Assembly (NCBI GenBank): GCA_965153355.1
Contig: OZ231126.1
Location: 32,612,001 to 32,676,000 of the forward strand
Source: Flaccisagitta enflata
Lineage: Eukaryota
DNA length: 64,000 nucleotides
Direction of reading: 5' to 3'
The notes under the pieces are model-generated. The model searched no databases. It was given only the letters and a program-made list of their open reading frames with translations, and was not told the origin of the DNA. Below are positions 963-27,086 of this stretch, piece by piece (position 1 is the stretch's first letter; each line of letters starts with the position of its first letter). The position numbers were made by a program, and so were the translations under genes.

Positions 963-2902
<1,940 letters not shown>

Positions 2903-3417: not shown

Positions 3418-3672
3418 TGATTCCTAACTTGGGACTCAAAAAATAAAAATGAAATGTTTCTTCTATTTTTTTCTTAATAAAATTTTTCAAACACCATCAG
3501 AAAAATTTCTCAATGGTAACTTAACAAGCCCGACCGGGCAACGATGCGTCCAGGCCGTGTCTCTGTATATATTGATCATGTGACATAAATGGAGAGACAG
3601 ATGGACGAACAGACAGGTGAAACGACTTAGTAGTAAAGGAGGCAAGACATATAAATCATTTGTTTCAGTATA

Positions 3673-4473
3673 GGTCATTTCCACAATAAACCGGCCCAGC
3701 TGAAATTCATGATGTAACAGGCAAAAATATTGTTTTTATCAAGCTAATCCTTTTTTTTATGATAGAAGCTGTTGTAACACATTACTTGGGATTCAGTGCC
3801 TAGCTGATATCCTTCATACTTAAAATTTTGATAGGCTATCTAGCAAAGAATAGGCCAAAATCACCCCCTTTTTTATGTCACGCTGATGTCACATTTAAAA
3901 CCACATTGAAAAAGATATGAAAAAATCGTTAAGCCTACCCAACTATGGGTCATTTTTATTTAATTGCAATCCCTAAAGAAGAACTAATGATTTATGGCGA
4001 CCAATTGTTGTTAACTATGGAAAAATTTCACTTTTAGTTGATGTATCTAAAATGATGATTTATTTGATTTTGATATATAGTAGTATACTATACTGTAAAT
4101 GACAATATCTTAAATATTATGGAAATTTTCTTTTTTCCCCCTTTAGTATAGACATAACCCATGTTACATGCAAAATTTCAGACCTTAATGTCAATTCTAG
4201 CCAGAGATATTGATTTTTGAAGAGAGTGACGGAAAATGTTAATACCCTGTTACTCTAATGTTACTCTGATTACGATGAAAACTAACATAGTTGAACACAT
4301 TTTAAGTATTGGAATATTTTTTCTTGTATGATCTGAAAGAGTATCAAATTCTGAGCATAGGGCTCAAATTTTAAGCTCATAGGTGCAACCATTATGAAAT
4401 TTTGACATTTTTATCAATGTTAACGAATTCAGTCGCCTTATTTCCGCCAGTCTAGTTTATTGTGGAAACTGCC
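3673..4473. mobile_element. Old MITE inside a reverse family A element
   Basis: Imperfect TIR GGTCATTTCCACAATAAAC / GTTTATTGTGGAAACTGCC with TATA on both flanks. Confidence 0.55.
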
Positions 4474-4926
4474 TATAGGATCTCACCGTGGCCAAAAACA
4501 GCCGAGAAAAGTGGTGTTTGTACTTGCGTGACAGACATACCAACGGATGGACAAACGGACTGATGGACCGATGGACCAGCGGACCGGCGGACAGACCGAC
4601 GGACAGACCCTCTTAAAGAGATACGTTCCTGACGGACGCATTTAAAAAGTATGAATCTAGTTTTCATGTAATTGACCGCTTTGTTACTGTCAGAATGTGT
4701 TGATAATAAACAATTATCAATCTAGTTAATAGTTATCAGTTTGTAATGTGTATGTATCAGTATGTTTCTGTCATATCTTGACAAATAAAAGGATCAATCA
4801 CATTCATGAATAGATATTACATACAAAATGCATAAACTATTTAGCTAGGTAATGAATAATCCAACAGTTGCTAAATCCGATAAAGTTGCTAAATGTGATA
4901 AAGTAGTAGTCCACTGTATGATTTTT

Positions 4927-5250
4927 TCACGCTAGAAAACGTAGAATGACACAAGTTTGTAAACAAGCATCTCCTCGGTGATCACTTGTTCGAACCCCGA
5001 GTAGGCGCTTTAATCTCCGTTCTGGTGGAACTAACAAATATTTCTGATTTTTTCGCCACGCTCTAACTTTTCTGAATATTTTTGTTTCTTTAAAGGCGCT
5101 ACAGTTCCAAACAAAGAGGTAATGCGTGTTTCCCATGAATAAGGGTGAATAATAAGCTCAACGCTAGAGATGTTTTCGTCGATTATAAAAGAGCTGCTTT
5201 TTCTCAGCGCCTGGTCTCAATTTCTGTTGTAAGAAAACCAAGAATTCACG
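4927..5250 (-). pseudogene. Possible decayed LINE ORF2 C-terminal fragment
   Basis: EIETRR...THYLFVWNCSAFKE..LLG loosely resembles the IETGR...HFLxxCxxY pattern of L2/Crack-like LINE ends. Heavily degenerate. Confidence 0.25.
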
Positions 5251-5507
5251 AAAAATGTAAATCTTCTTCTATTCATCTTCTTGTTCTTGTTATTCTTGTT
5301 CTTGTTCTTGTTCTTCTTCTTCTTCTTCTTCTTCTTCTTCTTCTTCTTCTTCTTCTTCTTCTTCTTCTTCTCCTTCTTCTTCTTCTTCTTCTTCCTTCTC
5401 ATATTTTTTTCTTCTTCTTCTTCTTCTTTTTCTTCTTCTTCTTCTACTTCTTCTTCTTCTTCTTCTTCTCCTTCTTCTTCTTCTTCTTCTTCTTCTTCTA
5501 CTTCTTC

Positions 5508-6647
5508 TTTTTGGGCAGCGGCCCCAAAGGGCCGATGTCCTGTATAGCTGTAGGACACAGGGGTGAATTTCTATACGTCCGTCCTTCTGTCCTTCCGTCC
5601 GTCCTTCCATCTCCCCCCCAAGCTTTCCAAGCCTCAAATTCCCATCGGATAACATGGGAAATTGTCAAAATGCAAACTTCCCATGGAATAACATGGAAAG
5701 TTTTCAAAAATGCAAGAACATGCATGTATCCCACATGTGTCTGACAGCCAATCCAGGGTTAGAATGACAGTACACCGGATTTTTCTGTAGTTTTGCTATG
5801 CTCATCTGTGTACAATACAAGAACAATTGAGTTGGAAATCTTCCCTGGAGGGGTTTTTGAAAAAAAATCGATTTTTGGCCCACAGGAAAGGTGGTGGTAA
5901 TGCAGATTCTTGTGAGTTGTATTAACTCATTTCTTGATTCCATATTGTTATTCTATGCAAAATTTCCTTTTATTTGATAGGTCACACTATACGGTTTAAT
6001 ACAGAAATAAAGTTTTCATTTTTTGAGCCACCGTTTTTTTTTGCAACGGTGACCCAAAAAATGAAAATTTAAGTTTTTTGCAAAAGTATAGAGTGCGACC
6101 TATCAAATGAAATAAAATTTTGCATAGAATAACAATATGGAATCAAGAAATGAGTTAATACAACTCACAAGAATCTGCATTACCACCACCTTTCCTGTGG
6201 GCGAAAAATCGATTTTTTTTCAAAAAACCCTCCAGGGAAGATTTCCAACTAGATTGTTCTTGTATTGTACACAGATGAGCATAGCAAAACTACAGAAAAA
6301 CCCAGTGTACTGTCATTCTCACCCTGGATTGGCTGTCAGACACATGTGTCCCATTGAATAACATGGAAAATTGATGAAAACTAAGAAAAATGTAAAATTC
6401 CAATTGAATAACATGGCAAATTGACAAGAAATTTTTAAAAAATGCAAAATTCCCAATGAATATTATGGAAAATTGCTACTAAGGCCTCAAATATGCCCTC
6501 TCAGGACGTATGGAAATTCACCCCTGTGTCCTACAGGATATCAGCTCTTTGGGGCCGCTGCCCTGCTCTCACTCCACTTCTTCAGCCAATCACTCCAAGC
6601 AGGGCATCGGGTACCGCTGACCATGTGCGATCCTTGGATGACTTGTT
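5508..6647 (+). mobile_element. Helentron-like family B copy inserted in a (CTT)n tract
   Basis: TTTTTGGGCAGCGGCCCCAAAGGG start, (GTCC)n, internal repeats, inverted GGGCCGCTGCCC, end ...GGATGACTTGTT. Confidence 0.7.
5732..6348. mobile_element. CMC-type foldback MITE (617 bp, near-perfect palindrome)
   Basis: CACATGTGTCTGACAGCC / GGCTGTCAGACACATGTG ends, about 300-bp arms, 3-bp TSD TCC (5729-5731, 6349-6351). Confidence 0.88.
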
Positions 6648-7090
6648 CTTCTACTTCTTCTTCTCTTATTATATTTAGCCCACGTAAACGTAGTTTTGAC
6701 TCTGGGATAGCTTTGTCTTGTAGAAATCTCTGATTGTCTGACGATGTTAGACGCAAAGGAAATTTAGGCGTAGATTGAAAAAAGGGCGTGACGATGGTCT
6801 CTTTGATGTGGTAAAAATTTCAACAATCTGAGAGGGGAAGAAATGAAAGGGAAATTGGGCATTAAAGGATGGTCAACCAATGCATGAAAACAACATGAGA
6901 TCAGGATAGACATGGACAGAAACAGCCAATAACAACATGTACATTTTATACAGAGGCCATGAAGCTAGATCCGTACACTGCCCCCGCCCTGCCCATCCCA
7001 CTAAATTCACCCATGTCACCCCAATAATCAGTTGACCGGACAGACGATAAAAACAGACGATAAAATGATAAAAAACAGACAATAAACAAT

Positions 7091-7722
7091 AACAGGTCGC
7101 CCAAGGGCAATATGTGGTCAGCGATACCCGTTGCCCTGCTTTGAGTGATTGTGAATTGGAGTGAGGGGAAGCAGGGCAGCGGCCCCGAAGGGGACGAAGT
7201 CCTGTAGAACACAGGGGGACTTTCGTTCGTCCTACCTGAAGAAGTGGATGAGATGCTATAGAGGGCTGACTGAAGGCATTCAAGAGCCTAAACTGAGGTC
7301 TAAGAAGACTGATACAAGCCCTGAGAATGCCGATTGGAAGCTTAAGAGGGCTGACTTGAGGCTTGCGAGAGCTGGATTAAGGCTTGAAAGGCCAGAGGAC
7401 TGATTTGAAGCCTGGAAGCAATAAATTGAGGTTTAGATGGCTGATTTGAGGCCTGAGAGGCCTAATTTGAGGCATGAGAGGCCAGGTTTGAGGCCTGAGA
7501 TTTGGATTTGAGGCCTGAGAAGCCAGATTTGAGGCCTGAGAGGCCAGATTTGAGGCCTGAGAGGCCAGATTTGAGGCCTGTTCAGGCTGGATTTGAGACC
7601 TGAGAGGCTGGATTTGAGGCTTGAGAGGCCTGATGTGAGGCCTGAGGGGTCTGACAAAGGGGGGGGACTAACGGACGAACGGACGGATGGACGGACGAAA
7701 GAAAGTCCCCCTGTGTTCTAGA
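7091..7722 (-). mobile_element. Helentron-like family B copy (partial), same subfamily as 42417-43253
   Basis: Shares unique internal sequence and the 21-bp GAGAGGCCAGATTTGAGGCCT array. Confidence 0.7.
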
Positions 7723-8509
7723 ATTGAAGATTTTTCAGCTTCATTCTAACTAGTCTGTAAACAGTTTCAGAAACGGTCTCCGGTATCTAATATGAGTCAG
7801 ATGTCCGTTCATTTGTCTCTGAAAATAGAAGAATGAGAGACTTATGAAAGACATGAAATTGCAAGGGCGCACATCATGAAAATCAAGCAAAATATCAAAC
7901 GTTCCATTAAGAAGTGATGCCATATCAATGTATACGCAATTAAAAATCAAAGCATAGAACATACGACGATGAAAATGTAGAGAGAAAAATACGTGAGAAT
8001 ACGTAATTCCAATTTTAATAAAAGAGCAAGGCGAGATGGTTCAGAACCAGCGCGCCATATGGAGAGAAATGAAAAATGGCTAAAAACAAATGGCATCGAA
8101 TTGGAAAGAAAGAGGAAAGAGACAATCACTCCAAAGATCATCAGCACTCGCATACTTAAATAAAACACACATTTCCACACTCTGCCCCATTTTTGCAATT
8201 TCATGAATTTCAAAAATCCGACATTTAGTTTCTGGTCGTAGGAAACTCTACATAAAAACCCATACTATCACGCTGAAAAAAATTTTATGATAATTAAACT
8301 ACAGCCCTCGCCCCTCTCCTGCGCCTCCGCCTCTTACATCCCCACCCCCCTACAGAAGGAGATCGACGAGCGACATGGCGACGAATGTTTCCCCCCCCCC
8401 CCCGTCCGGAAGGGGGGGACGAAACCAAGCGAAGTGATCAATCCAACGATGACGGGCGGAGACGAGTACGGAGACGAGGAAGATGAGGCGCCTGTTCTGT
8501 TAAAAAGTT

Positions 8510-9223
8510 AATAGTCGCAAAAGCGTTAGATGGTCAGCGGTACCCGTTGCCCCTATGAGAGTGTGTGGGTGTGTGGTGGTTAGAGGGGCAGCGGCCCCAA
8601 AGGGGCCGATGACCTATGCTGTTTTTATTTGAGCCTCAAGGCTGGGATTAGGGTCTGGAGGCTGTAATTGGGGCCTTGAGACTGGGATTTGAGCCTTGAG
8701 GCTGGGATTTGAGCTTTGAGGCTGGGATTTGAGGCTTGACACTAGGATTTGGGCCTTAAGACTAGGATTTGAGACTCAAGGCTGGAATTTGAGCCTCAAG
8801 GCTGGGAATTGAGCCAAGAGGCTGGGATTTGAGCCTCAAGGCTGGGATTTGAGCCAAGAGGCTGGGATTTGGGCCTCAAGGCTGGGATTTGGGCCTCGAG
8901 GCTGGGATTTGAGCCTCAAGACTGGGGTTGGAGCCCCAGGCTGGGATTTGAGCCTCAAGACTGGGATTTGAGTCCAAGGCTGGGATTTGATCCTCAAGAC
9001 TGGGATTTGAGCCTCGAGACTGGGATTTGAGCCTCGAGACTGGGATTTGAGCCTCGAGACTGGGATTTGAGCCTCGAGGCTAGGATTTGAGCCTTGAAGC
9101 TAGGATTTGGGTCCCAAGGCCGGGGGGGGGGGACGCAGAAGGAGAAGAAGGTGAAGGAGAAGGAGAAATTTCCCCTGTGTGAAAGCATAGGTCATCGGCC
9201 CCTTCGGGGCTGCTGCCCAAAAA
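8510..9223 (-). mobile_element. Helentron-like family B copy with 21-bp array
   Basis: AATAGTCGCAAAAGCGTTAGATGG end, subterminal inverted repeats, GCTGGGATTTGAGCCTCAAG array. Confidence 0.7.
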
Positions 9224-9274
9224 GGGGAGGGGGGGGGGAAGGGGGAACGGGCCTAGGAGCACCTCTAGACTGGG

Positions 9275-9971: not shown

Positions 9972-10909
9972 TTATTGCGGCGGCTGCTGTTGGTTATGCT
10001 GCTGCTGCTGCTGGCGGCCTGGATTCCAAGGACGCCTTTTAGGTTTTGGCGGCGCCTTGGGAGTGTCTTTTGCGCTTTGAGCAGTCGATGAGACGGAAGG
10101 CCGATTTTCGTTTTCTGCTGAAGCTGTCGATGTCGACAAAGCTGTGGGGGTCACTGGAGCCAGAAGGGCACGAGGATCTTGCTGTATGCAGAGGACGTGC
10201 TTGAAGGCTGCTGCCGTCGACGCCTTCTGCGCAAATCCCGTCGCCTCCTTAGCCTTTGCGTCCGCCACTTGCTTCGCCTTCTCCAACTTCTTCTCCAGAT
10301 CTGCGACTCGCATATCGCTCTTGACCTTTGCATCTGACGCAATCATCGCTTTGCATCTCGTCTCCATGACTTCCGTCTGAATCCGCGACGCTTCCGCCAT
10401 GTCCCAAACAGCACAGGCACATTCAACTCGCTGAGCGTTGCTGAATGATTTGTAAAAGGTGGCTGGGAGGTAACTTGCAAGTCTTGACAACTGACGTTTG
10501 GAGGTGCTCTTTCCAGTTGCCGAACACAGGCGGAGCAGATGCTCGTCGATGCAAAGTCCAGTCTCGGGGTCAAGAACCGTCGACAAAGAGTTTGGCCATT
10601 CCAACTTCTGTTGCTGATAAACTGGTGGTCCTTTCGACTGTTGTTGAGACGTCGCAGAACCCCTGGCGACCGCCGGAGGCTGGATATCACCAATTGGATT
10701 TTTCCCTTGCGCTGCTGCTGCTTCTGGCCGCTGTTTAAGCTCCTTTGTCTTCTTTGACGCGGGCGCCGTTGAAGACGCAGTTGCTCCCCCGCTACCTGAA
10801 GCTGATGCCGCTGCGCTGGGGACCTCCTGCTGCTGAGGAGGCTGTTGTTGCTTCTTTTTATTATTGTTTTTGCCTTTGCCTTTGCTTTTGGAATTGGCCG
10901 TGGCTTGAA

Positions 10910-10940
<31 letters not shown>

Positions 10941-11430
10941 TTGTTGCCATTGGTGCTGCTGATGTTGTTGCTGCTGCTTTGGCTGCTGGAGTTGCTGCTG
11001 CTGCTGCTGATGTTGTTTTTGCCGTTGCTGCTGCTGATGTTGTTGCTGCTGCTTTGGCTGTTGTTGTTGCTGCTGCTGCTGGTGTTGCTGCTGCTGCTGT
11101 TGATGTTGCAACGGGTCGAGTCCCGTTTGCTTTTTCTCTTGTCGACACCTTTTTGGGTTGGGAGCTACATCTTGAGGATCCGGCGGCTGCTGATTTGGGG
11201 GATGAACCAAAGCCGGACGCGTTTGACGAGCTGCTGCTGCGTTGGTGGAAGTTGCCGCCGGTGGGTTTGCGGTTGCAGCAGACGATGGAGTTGTCGTCAA
11301 ATTCTTCTTCGACGCTTGGACCACATGTCGAGCCTCCTTGTAATTCTCCCTTTTCGTTTTTTGTCTTCCTTGTCTGCGTTCTAGGGTATCAAACCCTAAC
11401 CCACACTGAGTAGCCGACGAACGCATTTCC
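9972..11430 (-). CDS. 3' part of the split 726-aa accessory ORF (Q/A-rich linker, Cys-containing core, predicted coiled coil)
   Basis: 484-codon open frame. Removing 11435-18236 plus one TSD gives TGC TGC AAC AAG GAG AAG GAA ATG CGT (CCNKEKEMR), in frame with the upstream part. Confidence 0.75.
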
Positions 11431-12438
11431 TTCTCACACTGTTCCCATACAGCGACTTAATCAGACTTGAGTGTCTGGGTTGGTGATTGATAGGGAAGTG
11501 TTCTCCAATATCATGGGAACATCAGCCACTATCTGGTAAGTTTTTTGGAAAGCAAAATTTTCGTAAAACACCCCTTGCTGCCTGGAAGGAAAACCGGTCA
11601 GGTGGTGGCTTTTTTATTTTCATAGTTTACCTTGTTTCGTTCATAACTTTGGAACGGATTGATCAAAATACCTGGGATTGGACTCGTTTGCAAGATATTT
11701 TGAAGTAAATTACGAAAAATATATCAAAAATGGGTTGTCACCTTGCAAAAGCTCGCTTGAGGCTGTCGAATGAGACCTAAATGGTAAGAATTGTCAAAAA
11801 TGACAAACCATGATTTTTTATGTCAAACGCATGAGTCGTACCTCGCTGCTCTATAAATGATCCGGGATGACTTATCATAAACTAAGTTGAGGATTTAGGA
11901 CCCAAAGGGCCCACCAACAGAGCTCTCAGGGCCCGAAATTAAAACAAAAATGCTTAAATCAATCTAAATATTCAATATTGACATTCGTGTTTATTCCTTA
12001 AGTGCGCCAACGCACCTCTATCTGAAGCTTTGTCTCTTGGTTGGTTAATGATTGACTGGTTGATTGGTCAGTTGGTTGGTCGGTTGGTTGGTTGGTTGGT
12101 CAGTTGGTTGTCAATGGCTGGTGAACTGGAACCTCGGAGGCATTATTCCCATGAATGATTCAACAAGCCCATCCCGGCAACTCGATGCGTCATCTTTGTG
12201 AATTTTGAAAAAGGCGTGACAAACATACGGGCTGATGGATCAACTGACAGATGGACAAACCCTCCTATAGGGATAAGATGATGCATCTAAAAACCAATGG
12301 TATCTTAAGAATCATGTTGCTTATATTCTAGGCGGTGATTCAATCCTGGGGAGAGAAGTTATCAAATGAGACGCGATAAAGCATTTGCCATCACTTTTAG
12401 CTATTTTTTTTTTAGTCGCGTGTTACGCGACTCTACAC

Positions 12439-12790
12439 TACGCATGTCAGGGTGCCAAAAACGGGCGCAATTGGCTTTCCCCCCGCCATCATCTTTTTCC
12501 TTTGCAGAAGTCCTGTCAAACAAGCCATCGCGCAACCTTTATTTCGATCAGGAACCATCGTTAGGGTTTGGTTGAAGTTTCTATTGGATTAGCATTAGAA
12601 TTGATACTTTTATTATGCAAATTTTGCCTCATCCATAGATTACTATGGACACTTCATGGTCTACCTAACGATGGTTCCCGATTGATTTGAAAGTCGCGCA
12701 ATGGCTCATTTGATAGCATTTAAACAAAGAAAACAGATGAGGGTGGGGGGAAAGCCAGTTTTTGCCGATTGCGGCACTCTGACATGCGTA
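12439..12790. mobile_element. hAT-type MITE
   Basis: TIRs TACGCATGTCAG / CTGACATGCGTA, loosely palindromic body, 8-bp TSD CTCTACAC (12431-12438, 12791-12798). Confidence 0.85.
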
Positions 12791-12804
12791 CTCTACACCC
12801 CGCT

Positions 12805-15108
12805 GTATCTGGGCTCCTAACGCTAGTGAATCCTCTTTCCTCGCGCTTCAGCACATCCAGAACCAGGCCCTGCGCATCGCCACTGGCTGCCACTCCATCA
12901 CCTCCATTGATCACCTCCACAACGAAGCCGAAGTTATGCCTGTTGCACCTCACATCGAAATGCTTAACCAACAATTCCTAGTCAACGCCTTGAAGCCCTC
13001 TCATCCTTCGCACGCCATTGTCACGGCGCCTTACGGTCCACGCAAGATGAAGGCTACCCTTCATTCAAAATATGCTTCCTCCATCAATCAACATCTGTCC
13101 AACGGCTCTACTGACCCTGCCCAGTATTCTTCCACCCTCAAAAACATCCATACTTCTGCGGTCGCCACTTCCATCAACCGTCGCGTCTCGGCGTTAATTC
13201 TCTCCTCAGCACACGCCCACTGCCTGTATCTCCATCTGAGCGGAGGCTGTCGAGGCCACAGCGCACGACTCTGTCGCAACTGAGGTCCGGTCACTGCCGG
13301 CTTATGCAAGATTATCGCGTCCGTCAGACATTCTGTTATGCCCCCATATTTATAGGGGAAGGCCGGTTCGCGATTAAATTGGTACTTTATTGTATAAAAA
13401 AACAATTTCAGGTCTTGTTAAGGATTTTCTATCTCCCCTGGAATAGCGGTTTTGGTTTTACTATCATGGGTAATAGGTAGTTGTTGGGAAAATGTCCAAA
13501 TTTGGTCACTTTGGCCTCAAATTTAGGCCACTTCACCTTTGAAATCGAACCTAAAATCCATGAGATTATTAAACTAGAGCTCAAGAGCTAACCAGTGGTG
13601 CAATCCGCATGTTTTTATCTTTATTTTTTTAGATTTTCGAGAGTTTTAAAGATGGGGCTTGAGAGGACTTTTTTGCAGCATGAAATCTGGGGGTAATTTG
13701 GACATTTTTCACATTTTTCACTATACCGCAGCTTTGGATAGACCAATCTTTAAAAAATTGGTGACCAAATTGAAGAGTTTTTGATGCTTTAACTGATTCT
13801 GGAAAAATTTTGGATCGATATGGCCTCCAAAGAATTTTATTCACTCTCAAAGCAGGTGAAAAAAATCAAATTTTGATGTCATTTAGGTTATTTTTCATTG
13901 AAAAATTATGCCACTTCCAAACTGAAAATTGACTTTTAATTCATGAGCAAATTAAACAACAGCTCAAGAGCTAATTAGTGGTGCAATCAGAATATTTCTA
14001 TGTTTACTTGTTCAGATTTTAGAGTCTTTCAAAGATGAAGGGGTATGAGGATCATTTTTGTCATTATACCCTTTAAACTTTGAAGTTTTGTCAAATCTAG
14101 ACGCAGAATTGTTTTGACATGCCGATTGCACCACTGATTAGCTCTTGAGCTGTAGTTTGATTTGCTCATGAATTTTAAGTCAATTTTCAGTTTGGAAGTG
14201 GCATAATTTTTCAATGAAAAATAACCTAAATGACACAAAAATTTTGTTTTTTTCACCTGCTTTGAGAGTAAATAAAATTTTTCTGAGGCCATATCGATCC
14301 AAAATTTTTCCAGAATCAGTTAGAGCATCAAAAACTCTTCAATTTGGTCACCAATTTTTTAAAGATTGGTCTATCCAAAGCTGCGGTATAGTGAAAAATG
14401 TGAAAAATGTCCAAATTACCCCCAGATTTCATGCTGCAAAAAAGTCCTCTCAATCTTTAAAACTCTCTCAAATCTAAACAAAGAAAGATAAAAACATCCG
14501 GATTGCACCACTGGTTAGCTCTTGAGCTCTAGTTTGATAATCTCATGGATTTTAGGTTCGATTTCAAAGGCAAAGTGGCCTCAATTTGAAGCCAAAGTGA
14601 CTAAATTTGGTCATTTTCCCAACAACTTCCTATTACCCATGATAGTAAAACCAAAACCGTTACTCCAGGGAAGGTAGAAAATCCTTAACAAGACCTGAAA
14701 TTGCTTTTTAATACAATAAAGTACCAATTTAATCGCGAACCGGCCTTCCCCTATGAATATGGGGGCATAACAGAACGTCTGGCGTCCGTGTTGGGCAGTC
14801 CACTACTGACGTTTGCCCGGTCTGCAACTCTCAGCCCCACACGGTGTCTCACCTCTTTGATTGTGCTGCCGCTCCGACTACATTAACTGTAAAAGATCTT
14901 TGGCTTAACCCTGTTGCTGTCTGCGACTTCCTATCTTCGCTGCCGCCTTTCGCCTCTCTCCAATCTCCGGTGACGCCACCTTCTCCTTCTCCTCCTCCGT
15001 CCCCTCCACCTCTTCCTCCTCTTCCCCCTTGTCCCCCGCCTGAGCCGCCACCATGATCTATTCGTTTAAGCTTTCTACGCAACTTCGTTGCCCGGGGCCA
15101 CAACAACA
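12805..15108 (+). mobile_element. 5'-truncated I-group (Ingi/Vingi-like) LINE 3' end, interrupted by a hAT foldback element
   Basis: Encodes IWAPNAS..LQHIQNQALRIATGCHSITSIDHLHNEAEVMPV..., then LSQLRSGHCRLMQDYRVR|VGQSTTDVCPVCNSQPHTVSHLFDC..DLWLNP (post-RT region plus CCHC finger). Frameshift near 13185, (AAC)n tail, TSD ACACCCCGCT (12795-12804, 15109-15118). Confidence 0.85.
13325..14781. mobile_element. hAT-type foldback element, almost fully palindromic (1457 bp)
   Basis: CAGACATTCTGTTATGCCCCC / GGGGGCATAACAGAACGTCTG ends, about 700-bp inverted arms, 8-bp TSD GCGTCCGT (13317-13324, 14782-14789). Confidence 0.92.
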
Positions 15109-15160
15109 ACACCCCGCTATGTCCGCCCGTTGGTTGGTCGGTTGGTTGGTCATTCCCCTT

Positions 15161-16515
15161 ATGGGCAGCGGCCAAGGGGCCGATAACCTATACTTTCACA
15201 GATATAGGTAATTTTCTTCGCCTTCTTCTCCTTCTCCTTCTTCGCACCCCCCCCCTCAAAGCCCAGCCTCGAGGCCCAAAATCCAGTCTTGAGGCCCAAA
15301 TTCCAGTCTCGAGGCCCAAATCTCAGTCTCGAGGCCCAAATCCCAGCCTCAAGGCCTAAATCCTAGCCTCGAGGCCCAAGTCCTAGCCTGGAGGCCCAGA
15401 TTCCAGCCTTGAGGCTAAATTTCAACCTGGAGGTCCAAATCCCAGCTTACTATCTTGGAAATAAATATACGGACACCTAACCATCATTATAGCAGCTACC
15501 CTGCAACAACTACTTCAAAAATGAAAGAAGATCAACAAACAATGACAAAATATCTTTCATTCAAGTCCAAGCAAAGGTCAGTAGCTCAAACTGTTTTCAT
15601 TTGACAGCGTTTTAAAGAGAAACTGCCATTTTACCAAAATCGTATTTTGAGGTTTTCAGTTCAAATCTTCAAAGGACAACCTATGTTGAAAGAGCTCAAA
15701 TCTAAACGGATTGACCAAAATCATTTTGCTTGACCTTGTTAGATCAGATCTTTTACAAATTTTTTGACTGTTAAAAAAATTGAAGGCTGCAGTTAAACAT
15801 ATTGCGCTCAAATTATTTAATATCAATACAAAACCAAACAGATTATATGATTTTTATGGTGCTTGTTGAGAAATTAAGGATACACTGATTAAGGTTGAAA
15901 AATCGTAAACCAATCCCATAGAAACTCAAAACAGAAGCAGGTCATAGATCAAAATACCATGAAATGACTAAAAATTAATTCATTTGAACATACATCTCAT
16001 TCAGTGTGTGATAAAACTGACTTTTCTCCAGCTGTCCGTATATTTATTTCCAAGATAGTAGAGGGCAAGGTCCCAGCCTTGAGGCTAGGATTTGGGCCTA
16101 GAGGCTGGGATTTGGGCTTTGAGGCTGGGATTTTGGCCTTGAGGCAGGGATTTGGGCCTAGAGACTGGAATTTGGGCCTCAAGGCTGGGCTGGGGGGGGG
16201 TGGAGGAGGAGGAGAAGGAGGGCCAAAATCAGGCCTGAGACTGTAGAATTGAGGCTCTGGTGGCCAGGGGGGGGACGGACGGAAGGACGGACAGATGGAC
16301 AGACGTCTCAAATCCCCCCGTGTCCTACAGGACATCGGCCCTTTGCTTTGGGGCCGCTGCCCAAAAAGGAGGAGAAAATTCCCCATATGTGTGAAAGCAT
16401 ATGTCAACAACCCCTTTGGGGCCGCGGCCCTGCTTCCACTTCACTTTCAAGCCCAAACTTAGGCAGGGCACAGGTACCGCTGAGGCGCTGACCATCTAAC
16501 GCTTTTGCGACTATT
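15161..16515 (+). mobile_element. Helentron-like family B copy or copies with 21-bp internal array and nested MITE
   Basis: GGGCAGCGGCC subterminal inverted repeats, GAGGCCCAAATCCCAGCCTC-type array, 3' end CTGACCATCTAACGCTTTTGCGACTATT. Confidence 0.6.
15450..16058. mobile_element. TA-flanked MITE (Tc1/mariner-type)
   Basis: Perfect TIR CTATCTTGGAAATAAATATACGGACA flanked by TA. A related TIR bounds 3189-3417. Confidence 0.75.
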
Positions 16516-16834
16516 ACTTTATGGTCTCATCACTGCATCTGCCTGAATCTCCTTTCAACCTCCGCAGCCCTGTCCCTACCAGCTCCCGCGCACCCTACTC
16601 ATTTTAATGTTACTGAATTTTTACCCATCTGCTCAATTTCTTTGAGCAAATGCTCAAACAAAAGGTGAGCCATGGGAATGATCGGTAACTTTAAATCTAA
16701 CCAAGCACGTTTAAAATCAGCAATTTATCTTCTGTAATGAATGAAAGAATGAATAGATGATTTGAATGAATAACTGAATAAATTAGTAAATGAATGAATG
16801 ATCAAACAAATGAATGAATGAATGAATGAATGTA

Positions 16835-17436
16835 ACCATAGCCAAAAAAAAAAAGTAGACGCTCAATTCTTATCATTTAATTGAAAACCAGTCACACTTT
16901 TTACTTGAAATCTATGAGCTTTTTAAAGAGCTTCAAAAACTCTGCAAATCTAGACCAAGCAGAAATTTGTGACTCAAGTCGTTTAGAAATGACATAAGAT
17001 TGAAGTTCAACACTCATTTTTCAAAATGCCAAAAAGAGCAGATTTCATCATCTGTGAACAAAGCATTATTTTACTTACTTTTTCTGTAGAAGGAAGTAAT
17101 GAAATAAATGGAATAAAATTTAAGGTAAAAATGAAGTATTTTTAATTCTCTACAAGATGAAACCAAGCAAAATTCTTGATTCCGCTTCGTTTAAAGGCTG
17201 TATTAATTCAAAGTTGGTTACTCTAAAAACATTTCTAAACATATTCGAGATTTTTGAGTAGTTGTCTTTAGAATATCATAACTTCTAAAATTTTGAAGCT
17301 AGAATGTTCAGAAAGAGCTCAAATGAAAGATCTTTCGAAGCTCTTTAAAACCGTCATAGATTTTAAGGGTTTACCATCTTTAGTTACCAAGCAATCAACA
17401 ATCAAAACATTGCGTCTACTTTTTTTTTGCCATGGT
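16835..17436. mobile_element. TA-flanked MITE (ACCATRGC termini)
   Basis: TIR ACCATAGCCAAAA..GTAGACGC / GCGTCTAC..TTTGCCATGGT with TA TSD. The empty site GAATGTATAAAACATG is preserved in the adjacent tandem duplicate near 17621. Confidence 0.8.
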
Positions 17437-17723
17437 TATAAAACATGATTACAAAGGAGAAAGGAATATTGATTAAGAGTGTTTTCTGAGATCTTATGCA
17501 GACATGACTGACAGATCGAAATGCAAACTGACCAACAAATGGACAGACAAACTGACAGCCTAACCATGAATGAATGAATAAATGAAATGAATAAATGAAT
17601 AAATGAATGAACGAATGAATGAATGTATAAAACATGATAACAAAGGAGAAAGGAATATTTATTGAGAGTGTTTTTAGAGATCCTTTGAAAACATGACTGA
17701 CAGATTGAAATGCAAACTGACCA

Positions 17724-17762
<39 letters not shown>

Positions 17763-18236
17763 AACTGACAAACTGACAGGCTGACCAAAAGACAAGCCAA
17801 TGGACTGGATTCCAATTAGATACGCAAGGACTTAATGATTTGGGGAGGTAAAAAAAATAAAGACACAGATTTCAGTCAGTTACAAGCATTTGGCCTGTGT
17901 TGGGACTCCCTTACAGACTCTCAAAGGGGCTGATATCTCTCATGATGGATTTTTTCATAAAATATAACCAAATATCTTCAAATCGAGACCATCTCCAAGT
18001 ATTTTGGCCAATTTGTTTAAAAATTATTCTTGAAACAAGGTAAGCTTTCCGTTGTATGGATACCACCACCTGACCTGTTTTTGTTCTTGATGATAGAAGG
18101 CATTTCACGAAAAGTTTGCTTTAAAAAAAACTTACCAAATAGTGAGAGATGTTCCCCACACACCACTGAACACTTCTCCGCCGATCAGTACCGCAGACAC
18201 TCAAGTCTGATTAAATCGCTATATGGGAACAGCGTG

Positions 18237-18958
18237 TTCTCCTTGTTGCAGCACAAATTAAGTTTGGAGAAGGCTTTGAAGATCAACGACTCAGACTCAT
18301 CCGCTTGGTCTTTGCGATGGTAGAACCAGCATGCTTGCTTCCGCTGGATCCTGACCTCTGGGGAGTCTTCATCCACATCTGGGTCGACGGGCGTCTCCTC
18401 CTTTTCCTCCACTGTCACCTCCACATCCATCCCCTCCTCCTCCCTTCGCACCTCCTCCCCATCAACCTTTAAGCCGTTGTCTCCGCCCCCGCTGCGATGA
18501 TCTGCAGCTTTCAATCTCTCCTGGAGAAGGGCTCTCGCCTCCGGAGGAGCCGGTCCACCAAATCCAGGGGTAAAGATTCGGCGAGGGGGCGACGGAAGGA
18601 TGGACGATCCCAACGACGAATTGGCGATGGAAACATCGTCGACGGGCCGCTTCAACTTCACACTCCGATGACCCACTCCCGCGGTGGTTTTCGTCGTGAT
18701 GACGATGGGAGGGAGAGTGGAAGAAGAAGGGGCGTCGGCCGGCTGTTGGTGATTTGCCGACGCATCGTCTTTGTTGAGGTTGAGGTCGCCGCTGAAGGCA
18801 GCTTGCATCGCCGCCTCCACCTCGTCCTCAAGCGACGCCGCAGAATACGTCTCAAAGTCTTCATCCCGTTCTGGTGTTGTCATCAGGCCGGCGATATCGA
18901 AAGAACCGTCGGCCGTCGACGCATCCATCTCGGCTTGGAGACGCTGCTCGCGCGACAT
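18237..18958 (-). CDS. 5' part (codons 1-240) of a split 726-aa accessory ORF downstream of BEL/Pao pol
   Basis: ATG at 18958 in context GTCAAG-ATG with an in-frame TGA shortly upstream. The frame is open to the TTCT TSD at 18237-18240. The track's last 17 aa (NTLFPYS...) come from the inserted TIR. Confidence 0.75.
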
Positions 18959-19325
18959 CTTGACTCCGACAAATCGACTTCAAGATGATGACTGACGTAT
19001 AGATGGAATTTCGACGTCAGCGGAAGCTTTCGAAAGTTGTTTTGAACGTATGAACTGTGTTTGCACAGAAGCAATTGAGAAATAGCATGATATCTACATG
19101 TAGACAAAGCAGTGAAACAATGTTTGAATTTTTACATGAAAATGAACATCACAAATTTGCCAATATGAGGAAAGAGTTGAATGCATGGATGAATAGAACC
19201 AAACATGAAGTCGTACATCTCTTTATGTCAGTTAAAAACAAACAGAGCAACAAACATTCACATCTATAGTTACTAATAGACAGGCCCATGCGCCTAAATC
19301 TCTCTCTCTCAAAACTTAGAGTTTT

Positions 19326-19910
19326 TTATGAGTCCATCTCCAGTCGCACAATCTTCGTGCGATCCCTCGTGACAATTCTTCCGTTGGCGCGGCGTACGTG
19401 CGCCCTCCAGACATGGGGCGACGTCCCTTCCACGTCGACGACTCTCCCCAGGCTCCAATCATGTCTGGGCACAGCCTCGTTGACGATGATTACAAGATCA
19501 TCAACCGCAAAGTCTTTCTCAGATTTGGTCCATTTACTTCTCGCATGAAGGAGACTCAAATATTCACAACGCCATTTTTAGTCGCGGACACGCCACTCTA
19601 CACCTTGCCGTGTTGGTCGGTATGTCGGTAGGTCCGTCGGTCCGTCGGTCCGTCACATTTCTGAATTCCGGGTGGTTTTTGCATTACTGCTCCTGCCCAA
19701 CCGTCCGCGACTGGATTGCCGTGTATCCGGCCTTGTTTCCAAAAAGCATCCACTCGAGATTGTGCGCGCTTCCATTGGACATGTGCCGACTCTGCGTCGA
19801 AGTTGACGCCGTGCTGCAACAGATCTATAGGAGCGTCACCGGAAGTAGATGGCAATTGGATGTGATTTGGCGTTAGCGCCGAGGGATCGCTTGGATCATC
19901 ACTCAGATAA
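19326..19910 (-). pseudogene. pol: BEL/Pao LTR-retrotransposon pol C-terminus (integrase 3' end, DUF5641-like), 5'-truncated and split by a small Helentron-like insertion
   Basis: The minus strand reads YLSDDPSDPSALTPNH...QWKRAQSRVDAFWK | (insertion about 19576-19737) | WRCEYLSLLHARSKWTKSEKDFAVDDLVIIVNEAVPRHDWSLGRVVDV...GRIVTRDRTKIVRLE*. This matches the characteristic BEL/Pao LTPxH...FWxxWxxEYL...RxKW...DLV...WxLGRV pattern. Confidence 0.9.
19576..19737 (+). mobile_element. Short complete Helentron/HINE-like family A element
   Basis: TTTTAGTCGCGGACACGCCACT hairpin, GTCY/GTCGG microsatellite, end GCCGTGTATCCGGCCTTGTT. Inserted in a T-run of pol with no distinct TSD. Confidence 0.75.
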
Positions 19911-20126
19911 ATAGTCACAAATTTGGCTTTTTTTTTCGATGGTGCCACCAACCCCTTAAAGGGGGGATCACTAATATTGCTCCTGGGAAGGTAGAATTGG
20001 GAAAAAAGGCTCAAACTTCTCAAAGTACACATAAAAAGTAAACTTTTCACCGATGCCATTCTTTCTAGGACGAAAAAAAAGTTTTATTGTCCCATCTAGT
20101 GGTTAGGGTTGATAAGTAGTTATGGA

Positions 20127-20162
<36 letters not shown>

Positions 20163-20179
20163 AAGAAATATAGAAAGAA

Positions 20180-22899
20180 GACAAGTGACGCGGGGTCACA
20201 ACATAATTGCGGACAGGTGGGCGGGGGCATCCAACCCTGATCCACACCCCAGCTCCCACCCCATACACAAACATACACAAAAACTAACCAAAACACTTGT
20301 TCTTCCACTTTTTGACTTGATCATTAGGACCGACGGACTAACGGACGGATAAAGTCTCTTACAGAGTTGCGTGTCCGCAACTAAAAATAGCAGCCCAAAG
20401 GCAGTAAGTGGTAGGTGGTACCCTTGCCCTGCTTGTGTAGTGTGTGATTTAAGTTGAGGGGGAGCAGGGCAGCGGCCCAAAAGGGGACGAAGTCTTGTAG
20501 AACACAGGGGGAATCTGTCCGTCCTTCCGTCCGTCCGTCCGTCTGTTTGTCCCCCCCGCATCACCCTCAGGGCTTTGTCTCCTTTGAGGCCTATTCTGAC
20601 CCAAATTCTGCCAAACAGCCCAAATCCAAGCAATATGGCCCAAATCTCAGCAAAATGGCCCAAATCCAAGCGTAATGGCCCAATTTCAAGCAAAATGGTT
20701 AAAATCTGTTCAGAATCTAGGTATCAGAGGCTACAATACAGGTCTAAGGGGCCAAAATGATGGACTTAGGGCTAGAATTGGGGTTTTCTGGCCACATTTG
20801 GGCCATTTTGCTTGAGATTGGGCCAATATGCTTGGATTTGAGCCATTTTGCTCAGATTTGGGCCATATTGCTTGGACTTGGGCTATTTGGCAGAATAGGC
20901 CCCAAAGGAGACGAAGCCCTGAGGGTGAAGCGGGGGGGATGGATGTATGGATGGACAGATTTCCCCTGTATTCTACAGGACTTTGTACCCTTTGGGGCCG
21001 CTGCCCAAAAAATGAAATGAATTGTTCATGTTATTTCAATTGCAATTGATATAACATGGAAACAGGTCGCCCAAGGGCAATATGTGGTCAGCGATACCCG
21101 TTGCCCTGCTTTGCATGATTGTGAAATAGAGTAAGCATGATTGCATGATTGCATGATTGCATGATTGTGAAATAGAGGAAGCAGGGCAGTGGTCCTGAAG
21201 GGGACAAAGTCCTGTAGAACATAGGGGGACTTTTGGGCAGCGGCCCCAAAGGGGACGAAGTCCTGTAGAACACATGGAGGCTTTTGTTTGTCTGTCTGTC
21301 CATTTGTCCGTCCGTCCATTCGTCCCCTCATCAGGCCCCTCAAATCTAGCCTTTCAGGCCTCAAATCCTGCCTCTCCGGCCCCAATTCCAGCCCTTCCGG
21401 CCTCAAATCCAGCCACTCAGGCCTCAATTCTTGCCTCTCAGGCCTCAAATCCAACCTCTCGGGCCTCAAACCTGGCCTCTCAAGCCTCAAATTTGGCCTT
21501 TCAGGCCTCAAATCAGCCATCTAAGCCGGAATTTATTGCTCTTAGGCTTTAAATCAGTCCTCTGAATGGGCAGCGGCTTCGACGGGGACAATGTCCTGTA
21601 GAACACAGGGGGACTTTTATTGTTTGTCTGTCTGTGTGTGCGTGCATGTGTCCCCCCCCCCCTTGAGACTCAAATCTCAGCCTCAAAGCTCAAACCCCAG
21701 CCTCGAGGCTCAAACCCCAGCCTCGAGGCTCAAACCCCAGCATTCGGGTGTGTCAATATGCAAAAGGTTTTTTGATGAGATCATCAACATCAGACAGCAT
21801 AAGATATTAAATTCAAAGACCTTTAGCATTTTGATTTCATCAAATTTCATTTATCTTTCATTTTTTTCAAAACCCCTATTTAGACGCTAATTTGTATATT
21901 GCTGTGTTGATGATTTTCTATCAGTATCATTGTTACTGAACTTAATCAGATTCAACACATAAATATCTTGGTGCTAATTCAACAAAGTAATGGTTGTTTA
22001 TTTATCACCAAAGTTGTATAAAGAGATAATAACCAATCTTTTCTGTAGAAGTTATGTGTCTTATTTTCACCAAAACTGGAAGTATATATATTTTTGACTA
22101 TCTTTTCTTGCGCTAAAAAAATGGAAGATGATGGAAATTTGAAAAAATAAAAACGCTAAAGATTTTAGAATTCTTTTGTTTACACTCCCTGATGTCGATG
22201 ATCTAATCAATCATACTTTTGCATATTGACACACCCGACCCCAGCATCAAGGCTCAAATCCCAGCCCCAAGCCCAAATCACATCCTCGAGGCAAAAATCC
22301 TAACCTGGAGGCTCAAATCCCAGCCTCAAGGCTCAAATCCCAGCCTCAAGGCTCAAATTCCAGACTTGAGGCTCAAATTCCAGCCTTGAGGCTCAAATTC
22401 CAGCCTCGAGGTTCAAATCCCAGCCTTGAGGCTCAAATCCCAGCCTCAGGGCTCAAATTCAAGCCTCAAGACTCAAATCCCATTATTTAGCCATGGGGCC
22501 CATGAAGAAAATAACAGGTCGCCCAAGGACAGCTATACCCGTTGCCCTGCTTTGTGTGATTGTGAAATGGAGTGAGAGGAAGTAGGGCAGCGGCCCCAAA
22601 GAGAAGGAAGTCCTATAGAACACGGGGAATTTTGTTCGTGATTCCGTCCGTCCATCCGTCCATCCCCCCCAGAGAACAAATGATTTCAGGCCTGAGAGGG
22701 CAGAATTCAGGCCTAAGAGGGCAGATTCAAGGCCTGAGAGGGCAGATTTTAGGCCTGAGAGGATAAATTTCAGGCCTGAGAGGGCAGATTTCAGGCCTGA
22801 GAGGGCTTGGGAGGACAAACAAACGGACGGACAGAATTACAAACAATAGTCCCCCTGAGTTCTACAGGACTTCGTCCCCTTCTGGGCCGCTGCCCAAAA
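20180..22899. mobile_element. Cluster of stacked family A/B Helentron-like elements
   Basis: Repeated GGGCAGCGGCCCC..TGTAGAACACAGGGG boxes, 21-bp arrays in both orientations, AACAGGTCGCCCAAGG ends at about 21061 and 22512. Confidence 0.65.
21744..22238. mobile_element. Mutator-type MITE
   Basis: TIR TCGGGTGTGTCAATATGCAAAAG / CTTTTGCATATTGACACACCCGA, 9-bp TSD CCCCAGCAT (21735-21743, 22239-22247). Confidence 0.88.
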
Positions 22900-23205
22900 G
22901 TGATTTAGTTAAGGGACAATAAGAAAATATCACCACCCAACCCCTAACTTATCAAAAGATGAGGGTCTTTGGAGCTCTCTAATCCTCTCTATGATTTTTA
23001 ATCCGGATCCATCACAACTCTCCTTCAACCTTCCTTAAACTTAGGTTATGGAAACACAAAAAATAATGCCTCAAGTCGGCCTGTAAACCACTCAGGCGCC
23101 CCGCGAACGGCGCTCATTCAGGCGTTCTTTTTTTCGACATTTGACGCGTTTGCGCCTTCGGTGATTTCCGGCCAACTCAATTATTTCTTAGGGATCAACG
23201 CCAAG

Positions 23206-23256
<51 letters not shown>

Positions 23257-23294
23257 AGGGAGACAGATAGACAGAAAGCCAGTCATATAGACAG

Positions 23295-23427
<133 letters not shown>

Positions 23428-24844
23428 AAAGATTCCTTGCTCGGTCCTCCTTTTCGCCCATTACATTTCTTTAAAATTCTCCTGGTGCTCACGCAAAAGC
23501 TGCTGCTGACGTGCTGCTGCCCACGTGCTGCTGCTGACGGGGAGGAGGTGGCGGGAGAGAGGATGAGGCATGTCCAATCCTAGTAGCGCTGTCGTCGCTG
23601 ACGCCGCGCGCGTGCTCGTGGCTTTGGCATCGAATCAGCCGCTGCCTTTGAAATTGCTGCCGCGACGGCTGCGCAATTTTAGCTGCGGACATGCAACTCT
23701 ATGAGAGGCTTTGTTCGTCGGTTTATCCGTTGGTCCATCGGTCGATGAGCAGGAGCTGAAAAGTGGGAAAACAAGCGTTCAAGATGCTTGTGTGAGTGTT
23801 GGGGTGTGGATTGGGTGTGGATGGGGGTTGGATGCCCCTGCCCAGGCTTTGTCCGTTGGTCCATCTGTTGGTCCATCTGTCTGTGAGCACATGTTGAAAA
23901 GTGGGAAAATAAGCGTTCTAGATGCTTGTGTGAGTGTTGGGGAGGGGATTGGGGGTGGATGAGGATTGGATGCCCCTGCCCACCCGTCCGCTACGATATT
24001 GTGACCCCGTGTCATTTGTTTTCGAATTTTCCTTTCCTACTTACAGTTACACTGAAGATATGGATACTTGTAGAATTTTTACAAGAATGAATCTGTGTCC
24101 AACGTTTATTTTTGCAAAAGTGCAAATGAAACAAGGCCGTATACACGAGAGGACAATCGCGGACGGTTGGGCACGGGCAGTAAAGCAAAAACCGCTCGCA
24201 ATTCAAAAATGTGACCTACCGACCTACCGACCTACTGACCAACACGGCAAGGTGTAGAGTCGCGTGTCCGCGACTAAAAATTATGTCTATCATGAATTTT
24301 TCAACAAGTGTGCAGTCACTGTAAAACAAAAACTGTTTCGGTAGTTAAATTCAGTACTTGAAGGATAACAATTAATGCATGAATGCAGTTTTTCTTTTAA
24401 AAACATTCACATAAAAGACATTTTTCAATTGTTTTTCATGATTTTTCACATACATTAAAAGATTGATCCAATTAAGATAAAAAGGTGCAGAAACAATTTA
24501 CTAACGACAGTGATGACCAAAATGAAGATCTAACATAGGACACATAGAAAAGCATTTCACACATACATAATGATTGTATTTGGACACAAATATCAACGAA
24601 TGGTGAAAATTAATATCCGAAAATTTTCGATCCGTACTCGAATCTTCTTCAGTCGGAAAAGAAATAAGGGAAAAGAGACAGAGCAAAGGAAATATGGAAA
24701 TATGGAAGAAAGAAAGAAGAAGAAGGAAGGAAATAAAAGAGACAATAGATAATGGAGAAGAGAGAGAGGGATATTTGTGTCCAAATACAATTATTATGCC
24801 TCAAGCTCAACGACTCAACTTTCACCTTAAATCACACATACATA

Positions 24845-25268
24845 CACTCTTTTTTTTTATAAGAACGTCATTTTTTTTCCAAAGGCTTCATGATCTTATT
24901 TTCAAGGCAAAATAAACTCTTCAACGTTCTTACAGTGTTCTTAATCCTAGATACTATATAAACTATAGATTACCTTACAATATACTATTATTCAATTATA
25001 CTAAATATATTTCTGTTAAATACTGTTAAAACAAATATCAATCATTAAAGTAGGGATATTTTTATGATATTTATTTAAAAACTATAGAATATCATTTTAA
25101 TTATGCAAAAATTCAAGTGTTTTCTTAATGTTCTTTAAAGATTATTGTAAGCAAAATTTTTTTCTCAAGATTTGAAGACTTTGTATGTTTTTAGGATGTT
25201 CTTAATTTTGGGGTCATTCAAAGCCTTGATGTTCTTATAAACTAGGTTCTTATAATAAAAAAAGAGTG
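24845..25268. mobile_element. TA-flanked MITE
   Basis: TA-CACTCTTTTT..ATAAGAAC / GTTCTTATA..AAAAAGAGTG-TA. A partial second copy lies at about 48841-48990. Confidence 0.75.

Positions 25269-26859: not shown

Positions 26860-27086
<227 letters not shown>

What the first reader, a model, noticed from the sequence alone, without database searches (positions are those of the whole stretch)
9972..18958. Two separate ORFs are one gene split by a 6.8-kb insertion
Seen: excising 11435-18236 and one TTCT copy yields ...TGC TGC AAC AAG GAG AAG GAA ATG CGT..., joining 240 + 2 + 484 codons with no stop or frameshift. The junction falls inside a complex, non-repetitive segment. An ORF caller cannot see this. 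The TIRs, the TSD and the restored frame all point to the same junction.
Basis: seen in the sequence. Interest (0 to 1): 0.75.

Follow-up and report, generated by a model that had tools for sequence, protein, structure and literature searches.

The report
Transposon insertion splitting one reading frame
A 6.8-kb jumping-gene copy has landed inside a 726-codon gene of unknown function in a repeat-rich marine eukaryote, cutting it into two apparent genes; this is a real but ordinary event.

Summary
Window 11435-18236 (6,802 bp) is bounded by terminal inverted repeats: 40 of the first 43 bases are identical, and imperfect similarity runs to about 286 bp. It is flanked by a perfect 4-bp duplication, TTCT. 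Removing the element plus one TTCT copy gives a 726-codon minus-strand frame. Keeping both copies or removing both shifts the frame.

Relatives give independent support. All 6 relatives that cover the junction are contiguous there with the same spacing. One reads the same residues across the junction as the restored window.

No canonical splice sites fit any of the five equivalent cut positions, so it is not an ordinary intron. The insert has no transposase. It carries other repeats, including a reverse-transcriptase fragment. The CAC...GTG termini and 4-bp duplication fit a non-autonomous Chapaev/CMC-type DNA transposon, but the superfamily cannot be proven.

The split gene has no known domain and is mostly predicted disordered. 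It looks multi-copy in the source organism and lies 370 bp downstream of a BEL/Pao-type pol tail. This may therefore be a repeat nested in a repeat. I found no empty allele in reads. Interest is low to moderate.

The parts
18239..18958 (-). N-terminal half of the split ORF (240 codons, starting at the ATG at 18958). Bases 18238-18237 are the first two bases of codon 241.
   Evidence: Translation. It aligns to residues 1-242 of P0004 at 73% identity. Four relatives begin at the same Met: P0004, P0005, P0016 and P0006.
18237..18240 (.). Right copy of the 4-bp target-site duplication TTCT
11435..18236 (.). Inserted element of 6,802 bp. It is a non-autonomous TIR DNA transposon with termini 5'-CACAC...GCGTG-3', filled with other repeats.
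   Evidence: TIRs. No long ORF. None of the 18 longest internal frames has a Pfam match better than E = 0.066. A 713-nt contig in run X2 matches 18030-18237 with 1 mismatch; no further piece of it was listed (table 8).
17951..18236 (.). Right terminal inverted repeat (core 18168-18236)
   Evidence: (I13, I14, I11).
11435..11719 (.). Left terminal inverted repeat (core 11435-11503)
   Evidence: (I13, I14, I11).
11431..11434 (.). Left copy of the 4-bp target-site duplication TTCT
9972..11430 (-). C-terminal half of the split ORF. It holds the last base of codon 241, codon 242, then 484 codons from the internal Met at 11426 to the stop at 9972-9974.
   Evidence: Translation. It aligns to P0004 residues 243-692 at 73% identity. 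The Met is conserved as M or L inside relatives.
12783..13283 (+). Reverse-transcriptase (non-LTR type) C-terminal fragment nested in the insert
   Evidence: 3 relatives (E 5e-26 to 4e-14), all with precomputed PF00078. There was no direct Pfam hit.
13322..14784 (.). 1.46-kb near-perfect palindrome inside the insert
   Evidence: I1 (335 nt, 95%) and I2 (332 nt, 93%). Summed read depth is very high.
15448..16060 (.). TA-flanked small element with 31-nt inverted ends (97%), nested between two inverted arms of a 20-bp satellite (15155-15446 and 16075-16221)
   Evidence: (I20, D1, D4, I3). A joint from 15447 to 16059, skipping 611 bases, is seen in 7 contigs of X1 and 1 of X3 (table 5).
19329..19577 (-). 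C-terminal tail of a BEL/Pao-type pol (DUF5641). It is on the same strand, and its stop lies 370 bp upstream of the ORF's ATG.
   Evidence: PF18701, E 4.3e-15, profile positions 16-94 of 94. Sequence.

Best explanation
A non-autonomous cut-and-paste DNA transposon has inserted into codon 241 of a single-exon, 726-codon minus-strand ORF (18958 to 9972). The element is 6,802 bp, with long imperfect TIRs, termini 5'-CAC...GTG-3' and no transposase of its own.

Mechanism (inferred from established knowledge of DDE transposases): a transposase supplied in trans by an autonomous relative made a 4-bp staggered cut at TTCT. Repair of the gaps duplicated TTCT on both sides.

Consequences (read from the sequence): the upstream half now runs 17 codons into the right TIR and stops. 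The downstream half happens to begin at a conserved internal Met two codons after the junction, so an ORF caller reports two genes.

The element is most likely of the Chapaev branch of the CMC (CACTA/Mirage/Chapaev) superfamily. I put about 55% on that sub-claim, on the basis of TSD length and termini only. Its interior is mostly other repeats.

The interrupted ORF belongs to a lineage-restricted, domain-less, largely disordered protein family with a confident C-terminal helical domain. It appears to be multi-copy in the source organism.
For: Shown:
- TIRs and TSD at the stated coordinates.
- Only removal of the element plus one TSD copy restores a 726-aa frame.
- 6 of 6 relatives that cover the junction are contiguous with identical spacing. 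P0008 and P0015 read K-E-M at the restored positions.
- Both halves are equally diverged from P0004, at 73% each.
- No transposase: none of the 18 largest internal frames has a Pfam match better than E = 0.066.
- Nested repeats: an RT fragment, a palindrome, a satellite and a TA-flanked small element.
- The element family exists elsewhere. An X2 contig matches the right end with 207 of 208 letters identical up to 18237, and no further piece of it was listed. Summed depth over the TIR bins is in the tens of thousands, against about 100-140 for single exact contigs.

Against: No read or contig with the empty site was shown. One search listed no joint from 11434 to 18241, but 773 further joints were not displayed, and the DNA runs are very short Logan contigs.

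No autonomous partner and no second full copy were found, so the superfamily assignment rests on 4 + 3 + 3 bases. A 4-bp TSD is also reported for Sola2 (PMC3627910, passage read).

One relative, P0016, loses similarity about 5 residues before the junction and ends 15 residues later. It neither supports nor contradicts contiguity.

I cannot prove that they are genomic rather than transcript-derived.
Confidence: 0.93

Rival explanations
1. A refinement rather than a strict rival. The split ORF is not a unique host gene but one copy of a multi-copy, repeat-borne ORF, for example an accessory 3' ORF of a BEL/Pao-like LTR retrotransposon. On this reading the event is a transposon nested in another repeat, with no consequence for the host.
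For: - A DUF5641 pol tail lies on the same strand, ending 370 bp upstream of the ATG.
- Summed depth over the gene bins in DNA run X1 is about 2,000-9,000, against about 100-140 for single exact contigs. Variant letters are carried by up to 7 different contigs at one position, for example 10260.
- Many fragmentary or degenerate relatives at 60-87% identity have unrelated tails: P0008, P0011, P0016, P0023.
- The ORF is intronless.
- The window's copy has Cys or His (TGC/TGT/CAT codons) at 5 positions where relatives have Arg, as expected from CpG decay.
Against: - No other pol domain was found among 66 frames of at least 55 aa in 18959-25500, and no LTR-like direct repeat of the 3' flank was found in the window.
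- The tool states that depth from Logan contigs is not a copy number.
- Relatives could be orthologues from related species in mixed samples.
- The ORF has its own conserved start and stop.
- CpG observed/expected in the two halves is 0.82 and 1.03, so they are not strongly decayed.
Confidence: 0.5
3. The 6.8-kb segment is an intron, possibly a transposon-derived 'introner'. On this reading the gene is intact at the RNA level.
For: Relatives would look contiguous if they came from transcripts.
Against: Because of the 4-bp repeat, the cut can be placed at five equivalent positions. On the coding strand the excised segment would then begin and end with AG..TG, GA..GA, AA..AG, AC..GA or CA..AA. 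None of these is GT..AG, GC..AG or AT..AC (read).

The nearest internal GT and AG would leave 14 extra bases and shift the frame.

TIRs plus a TSD explain the boundaries fully.
Confidence: 0.02
4. Two unrelated ORFs lie by chance beside an insertion, or the segment is an assembly artefact.
For: None beyond the 1-in-3 chance of frame agreement.
Against: Both halves align collinearly to single relatives. The restored residues match P0008 and P0015. Precise TIR/TSD boundaries are not expected from misassembly.
Confidence: 0.01

Closest known systems
Chapaev elements of the CMC (CACTA-Mirage-Chapaev) superfamily, filed under EnSpm/CACTA in Repbase
   Same: A 4-bp target-site duplication and 5'-CAC...GTG-3' termini. 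Both are given as hallmarks in PMC4079192 (passage read). It is a TIR-bounded, cut-and-paste type element found in an animal-like genome.
   Different: This copy has no transposase, so the defining DDE domain is untested. The TIRs are long (about 69 nt well conserved, about 286 nt detectable). At 6.8 kb the element is unusually large for a non-autonomous copy, because it is packed with other repeats.
Sola2 DNA transposons
   Same: 4-bp TSD (PMC3627910, passage read).
   Different: The Sola2 examples described there have 12-21-bp TIRs and AT-only TSDs (AWWT, ATAT). Here the TSD is TTCT and the termini are CAC/GTG.
Transib / RAG-like transposons (features recalled, not from a call)
   Different: Transib makes 5-bp duplications (recalled). 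Here the duplication is exactly 4 bp and cannot be extended.
Classical transposon-disrupted genes (textbook cases, recalled)
   Same: TIR element plus TSD inside a coding exon, and precise in-silico excision restores the frame.
   Different: Here no phenotype or empty allele is known, and the interrupted ORF may itself belong to a repeat.

Membership tests
Class II TIR (cut-and-paste) DNA transposon, non-autonomous copy | Terminal inverted repeats at both ends | tested here: met
   Arms of 69 nt are 83% complementary, with 40 of the first 43 identical. Similarity extends to 286 columns at 71%. The core occurs only at these two sites, and none of 100 shuffles gave a match.
Class II TIR (cut-and-paste) DNA transposon, non-autonomous copy | Target-site duplication directly flanking the TIRs | tested here: met
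   TTCT at 11431-11434 and 18237-18240. It cannot be extended.
Class II TIR (cut-and-paste) DNA transposon, non-autonomous copy | The empty target is restored when the element and one TSD copy are removed | tested here: met
   A 726-aa frame appears only under this model. 6 of 6 junction-covering relatives have the same spacing.
Class II TIR (cut-and-paste) DNA transposon, non-autonomous copy | Other copies at other sites in the genome | tested here: inconclusive
   One 713-nt X2 contig matches 18030-18237 with 207 of 208 letters identical, and no further piece of it was listed. Summed depth over the TIR bins is high. No whole genome is held. JGI metagenomes have no match to a 21-nt TIR core.
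Chapaev / CMC superfamily | 3- to 4-bp TSD | tested here: met
   4 bp. The criterion comes from the PMC4079192 passage.
Chapaev / CMC superfamily | Termini 5'-CAC ... GTG-3' | tested here: met
   CACACTG... at 11435 and ...CAGCGTG at 18236.
Chapaev / CMC superfamily | CMC-type DDE transposase, in this copy or in an autonomous partner with the same termini | not testable with these tools
   This copy has no transposase. No genome of the organism is held in which to look for a partner.
Transib / RAG-like | 5-bp TSD (recalled criterion) | tested here: not met
   The TSD is 4 bp. The fifth bases differ on the two sides.
Spliceosomal intron / introner | GT-AG (or GC-AG, AT-AC) boundaries that give the in-frame junction | tested here: not met
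   None of the five equivalent cut positions has canonical dinucleotides (read).
BEL/Pao LTR retrotransposon (as carrier of the split ORF) | pol with RT, RNase H and integrase upstream, and LTRs flanking the unit | tested here: not met
   Only the DUF5641 tail is present (E 4.3e-15). No other pol domain was found among 66 frames in 18959-25500. No LTR-like repeat of the 3' flank is present in the window. A truncated element is not excluded.

The most novel reading that the evidence does not exclude
The interrupted ORF may represent an undescribed, intronless, multi-copy protein family of marine animals. It has an acidic N-terminus, a poly-Q middle and a confident C-terminal helical domain. On this reading it travels as an accessory gene downstream of pol in BEL/Pao-like retrotransposons. 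The 6.8-kb Chapaev-like element that hit it would belong to a family still mobile in the population, since a near-identical end occurs at another site in a marine sample.
Probability: 0.2. Interest if true: 0.4.

Novelty: new member of a known kind. Interest (0 to 1): 0.25.

Why it matters
For annotation, the two called ORFs (257 and 484 aa) should be merged and flagged as one transposon-disrupted 726-codon gene or pseudogene. The 6.8-kb block should be masked as a composite repeat.

The locus gives a clean, base-exact example of insertion by a CAC...GTG / 4-bp-TSD element. It can seed a search for the family and its autonomous partner in this genome.

Biologically it is an ordinary event in a repeat-rich eukaryotic genome. 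It opens no long-standing question.

Tried and rejected
- **Empty site in the window's own genome:** no genome is held (error).
- **Reads (runs X1, X3, X7, X2):** no joint from 11434 to 18241 appeared among the 15 joints shown, and 773 were not shown. The DNA runs are very short Logan contigs dominated by repeats, so this leaves the question open.
- **RNA:** no RNA holder was listed. The one RNA run laid (X7, about 6% of it read) put almost nothing on the gene. This gives no conclusion on expression.
- **JGI metagenome contigs:**
  - P0004 gave 617 pattern matches but no confirmed relative
  - a 21-nt TIR core gave 0 matches
- **Function of the protein:**
  - Pfam: 0 families for both halves at E <= 1
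  - ESM Atlas: no usable hit
  - PDB profile search: best E 0.22
  - AlphaFold model of P0004 from 23 rows: mean pLDDT 60, with only residues about 490-625 confident, consisting of a short hairpin, helices and an 86-residue helix
  - Foldseek against PDB: none of 137 rows at E <= 0.001
- **Earlier notes of this scan:** nothing by place or by sequence.
- **Yuan & Wessler 2011 (PMC3093488):** not held. Its table of TSDs and termini was not seen.
- **Longer fused forms of the N-half (421-2000 aa):** only P0004 was found, with no pol fusion.
Full report
**1. The observation**

The window behaves as eukaryotic DNA. No prokaryotic genome is held for it, it has few long frames, and it is full of interspersed repeats.

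On the + strand the left flank ends ...TTCC TTCT at 11434 and the element starts CACACTGTTCCC at 11435. The element ends ...GGGAACAGCGTG at 18236 and the right flank starts TTCT CCTTG at 18237.

The ends are inverted repeats:
- Arms of 69 nt are 83% complementary (I13), 57 of 69 identical, with 40 of the first 43 identical.
- Further blocks follow (I14, 54 nt at 85%; I11, 96 nt at 72%). Together they align over 286 columns at 71%.
- A 39-nt core occurs only at these two places in the window. None of 100 shuffles gave any match.

TTCT abuts both ends and cannot be extended to five bases.

**2. The frame**

On the minus strand, 18958..18239 is an open 240-codon stretch beginning with ATG. 11426..9972 is a 484-codon ORF.

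I excised in silico under three models:
- Element only: the frame breaks after 255 aa.
- Element plus one TTCT: a 726-aa ORF.
- Element plus both TTCT: the frame breaks after 250 aa.

The two halves are the longest and third-longest stop-to-stop frames of the whole window (494 and 264 codons).

**3. Independent evidence from relatives**

A word-indexed search with the C-half found 2 proteins among 5,887 candidates. P0003 (427 aa) covers the C-half only. P0004 (692 aa) aligns end to end with both halves at 73% identity each.

A full HMMER scan of 1.84 billion representatives with P0004 gave 23 hits at E <= 1e-3, 17 at <= 1e-10 and 7 at <= 1e-30. I aligned 19 of these 23 with P0001-P0004. I left out P0024-P0027, the weakest four.

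Relatives that cover the junction are P0004, P0005 (703 aa, 42% identity), P0007, P0008, P0015 and P0023. All 6 of 6 run straight through it, with exactly three residues between the CCNKE-like motif and the RSS-like motif. In the window those three are K and E (the two restored codons) and the Met at 11426. P0008 and P0015 read K-E-M there, P0004 reads K-E-L, and P0005 reads T-L-M.

The 'start' of the downstream ORF is therefore a conserved internal residue.

P0016 loses similarity about five residues before the junction and ends soon after. P0008 diverges about 30 residues after it. Both look like broken copies and say nothing about the junction itself.

**4. Not an intron**

Because of the 4-bp repeat, the cut can be placed at five equivalent positions. 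On the coding strand the removed segment would begin and end with AG..TG, GA..GA, AA..AG, AC..GA or CA..AA. None of these is canonical (read). The nearest internal GT and AG would leave 14 extra bases and shift the frame.

**5. What the insert is**

It has no long ORF. None of its 18 largest frames has a Pfam hit better than E = 0.066. It is therefore non-autonomous.

Between the TIR arms it holds other repeats:
- A reverse-transcriptase C-terminal fragment at 12783-13283. Its 3 relatives all carry PF00078.
- A 1.46-kb palindrome at 13322-14784, 93-95%.
- Two inverted arms of a 20-bp satellite that recurs at 8627-9226, 22240-22482 and 32566-32963.
- Between those arms, a TA-flanked small element with 31-nt inverted ends. 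Its 'empty' form is seen as a joint skipping 611 bases in 7 X1 contigs and 1 X3 contig.

Summed read depth over these inner parts reaches 10^5 to 10^6, against about 100-140 for single exact contigs. The tool warns that this is not a copy number.

One 713-nt contig of a marine-metagenome run matches 18030-18237 with 207 of 208 letters identical, and no further piece of it was listed. This suggests the same element end sits at another site (table 8).

**6. Classification**

[quoted passage not shown] Both are met here.

Repbase classifies non-autonomous elements by exactly such terminal and TSD features (PMC4455052, passage read).

Sola2 also makes 4-bp TSDs (PMC3627910, passage read), but with short TIRs and AT-only targets. 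Transib, as I recall it, makes 5-bp TSDs, which is not met here.

Without a transposase the assignment to Chapaev/CMC is a best guess, at about 55%.

**7. What the split ORF is**

No function could be assigned:
- No Pfam family.
- No Atlas neighbour.
- No PDB sequence match; the best E is 0.22.
- The AlphaFold model of P0004 is mostly low-confidence (mean pLDDT 60). One confident C-terminal unit, about residues 490-625, consists of a small hairpin, short helices and an 86-residue helix.
- Foldseek found nothing at E <= 0.001.

The junction lies in a low-confidence stretch (residues 236-254).

The family looks multi-copy:
- Variant letters at single positions are carried by several contigs of one DNA run.
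- Summed depth over the gene is 10-60 times that of single exact contigs.
- Many relatives are fragments with unrelated tails.

The tail of a BEL/Pao-type pol (DUF5641, E 4.3e-15) lies on the same strand and ends 370 bp upstream of the ATG. No further pol domains were found among 66 frames in 18959-25500, and no LTR-like repeat was found.

The window's copy has Cys or His at five positions where relatives have Arg, with codons TGC, TGT or CAT. This is compatible with CpG decay. CpG observed/expected in the halves is still 0.82 and 1.03.

I therefore give about even odds that this is a transposon nested in another repeat rather than a hit on a unique host gene.

**8. What stays open**

No empty site was seen in reads (most joints were not displayed). 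Expression could not be judged. No copies were found in JGI metagenomes. The supplements and the Yuan & Wessler table were not seen.

**9. Verdict**

The phenomenon is a textbook TIR-transposon insertion into an ORF in a repeat-dense genome. It is a new member of a known kind, useful for annotation and as a seed for describing the element family, and of low to moderate wider interest.

Noticed in passing
window 19329-19577 (-): The last 83 codons of a BEL/Pao-type pol (DUF5641, E 4.3e-15). It is cut off at its 5' side where a ~170-bp interspersed repeat begins. It ends 370 bp upstream of the split ORF's ATG, on the same strand.
   Followed up: partly
window 19572-19738: A ~170-bp repeat, possibly SINE-like, with at least 7 further copies in the window at 70-89% identity (25642-25811, 50415-50576, 24128-24281, 54536-54707, 36828-36999, 62605-62693, 59381-59474).
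   Followed up: no
window 8627-9226, 15155-15446, 16075-16221, 22240-22482, 32566-32963: Arrays of a 20-bp satellite unit recur in both orientations. Summed read depth over them is the highest in the region, in the millions.
   Followed up: no
window 15448-16060: A TA-flanked ~610-bp element with 31-nt inverted ends (97%). Contigs of two DNA runs join 15447 to 16059 without it, so other copies of its host repeat lack it. It looks like a Tc1/mariner-type MITE, but that label is recalled and untested.
   Followed up: partly
window 13322-14784: A 1.46-kb palindrome with two arm pairs of ~335 nt (93-95% complementary) around a 125-nt centre, at very high read depth.
   Followed up: no
window 12783-13283 (+): An open 166-codon frame related to proteins with a reverse-transcriptase domain (PF00078). 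It is a dead retroelement fragment inside the insert.
   Followed up: yes
window 26616-27248 (-): A frame matching the PFF1_TM vacuolar/ER metalloprotease transmembrane domain exactly at Pfam's cut-off (32.3 bits, E 9e-8). It is possibly an exon of a real host gene.
   Followed up: no
window 20467-21006: A ~540-bp region that aligns to its own reverse complement at 72%.
   Followed up: no
window 9972-11426 and 18239-18958 (-): The window's copy has Cys (TGC/TGT) at four positions and His (CAT) at one where relatives have Arg. This is the pattern expected from CpG deamination in an unconstrained or methylated copy.
   Followed up: partly
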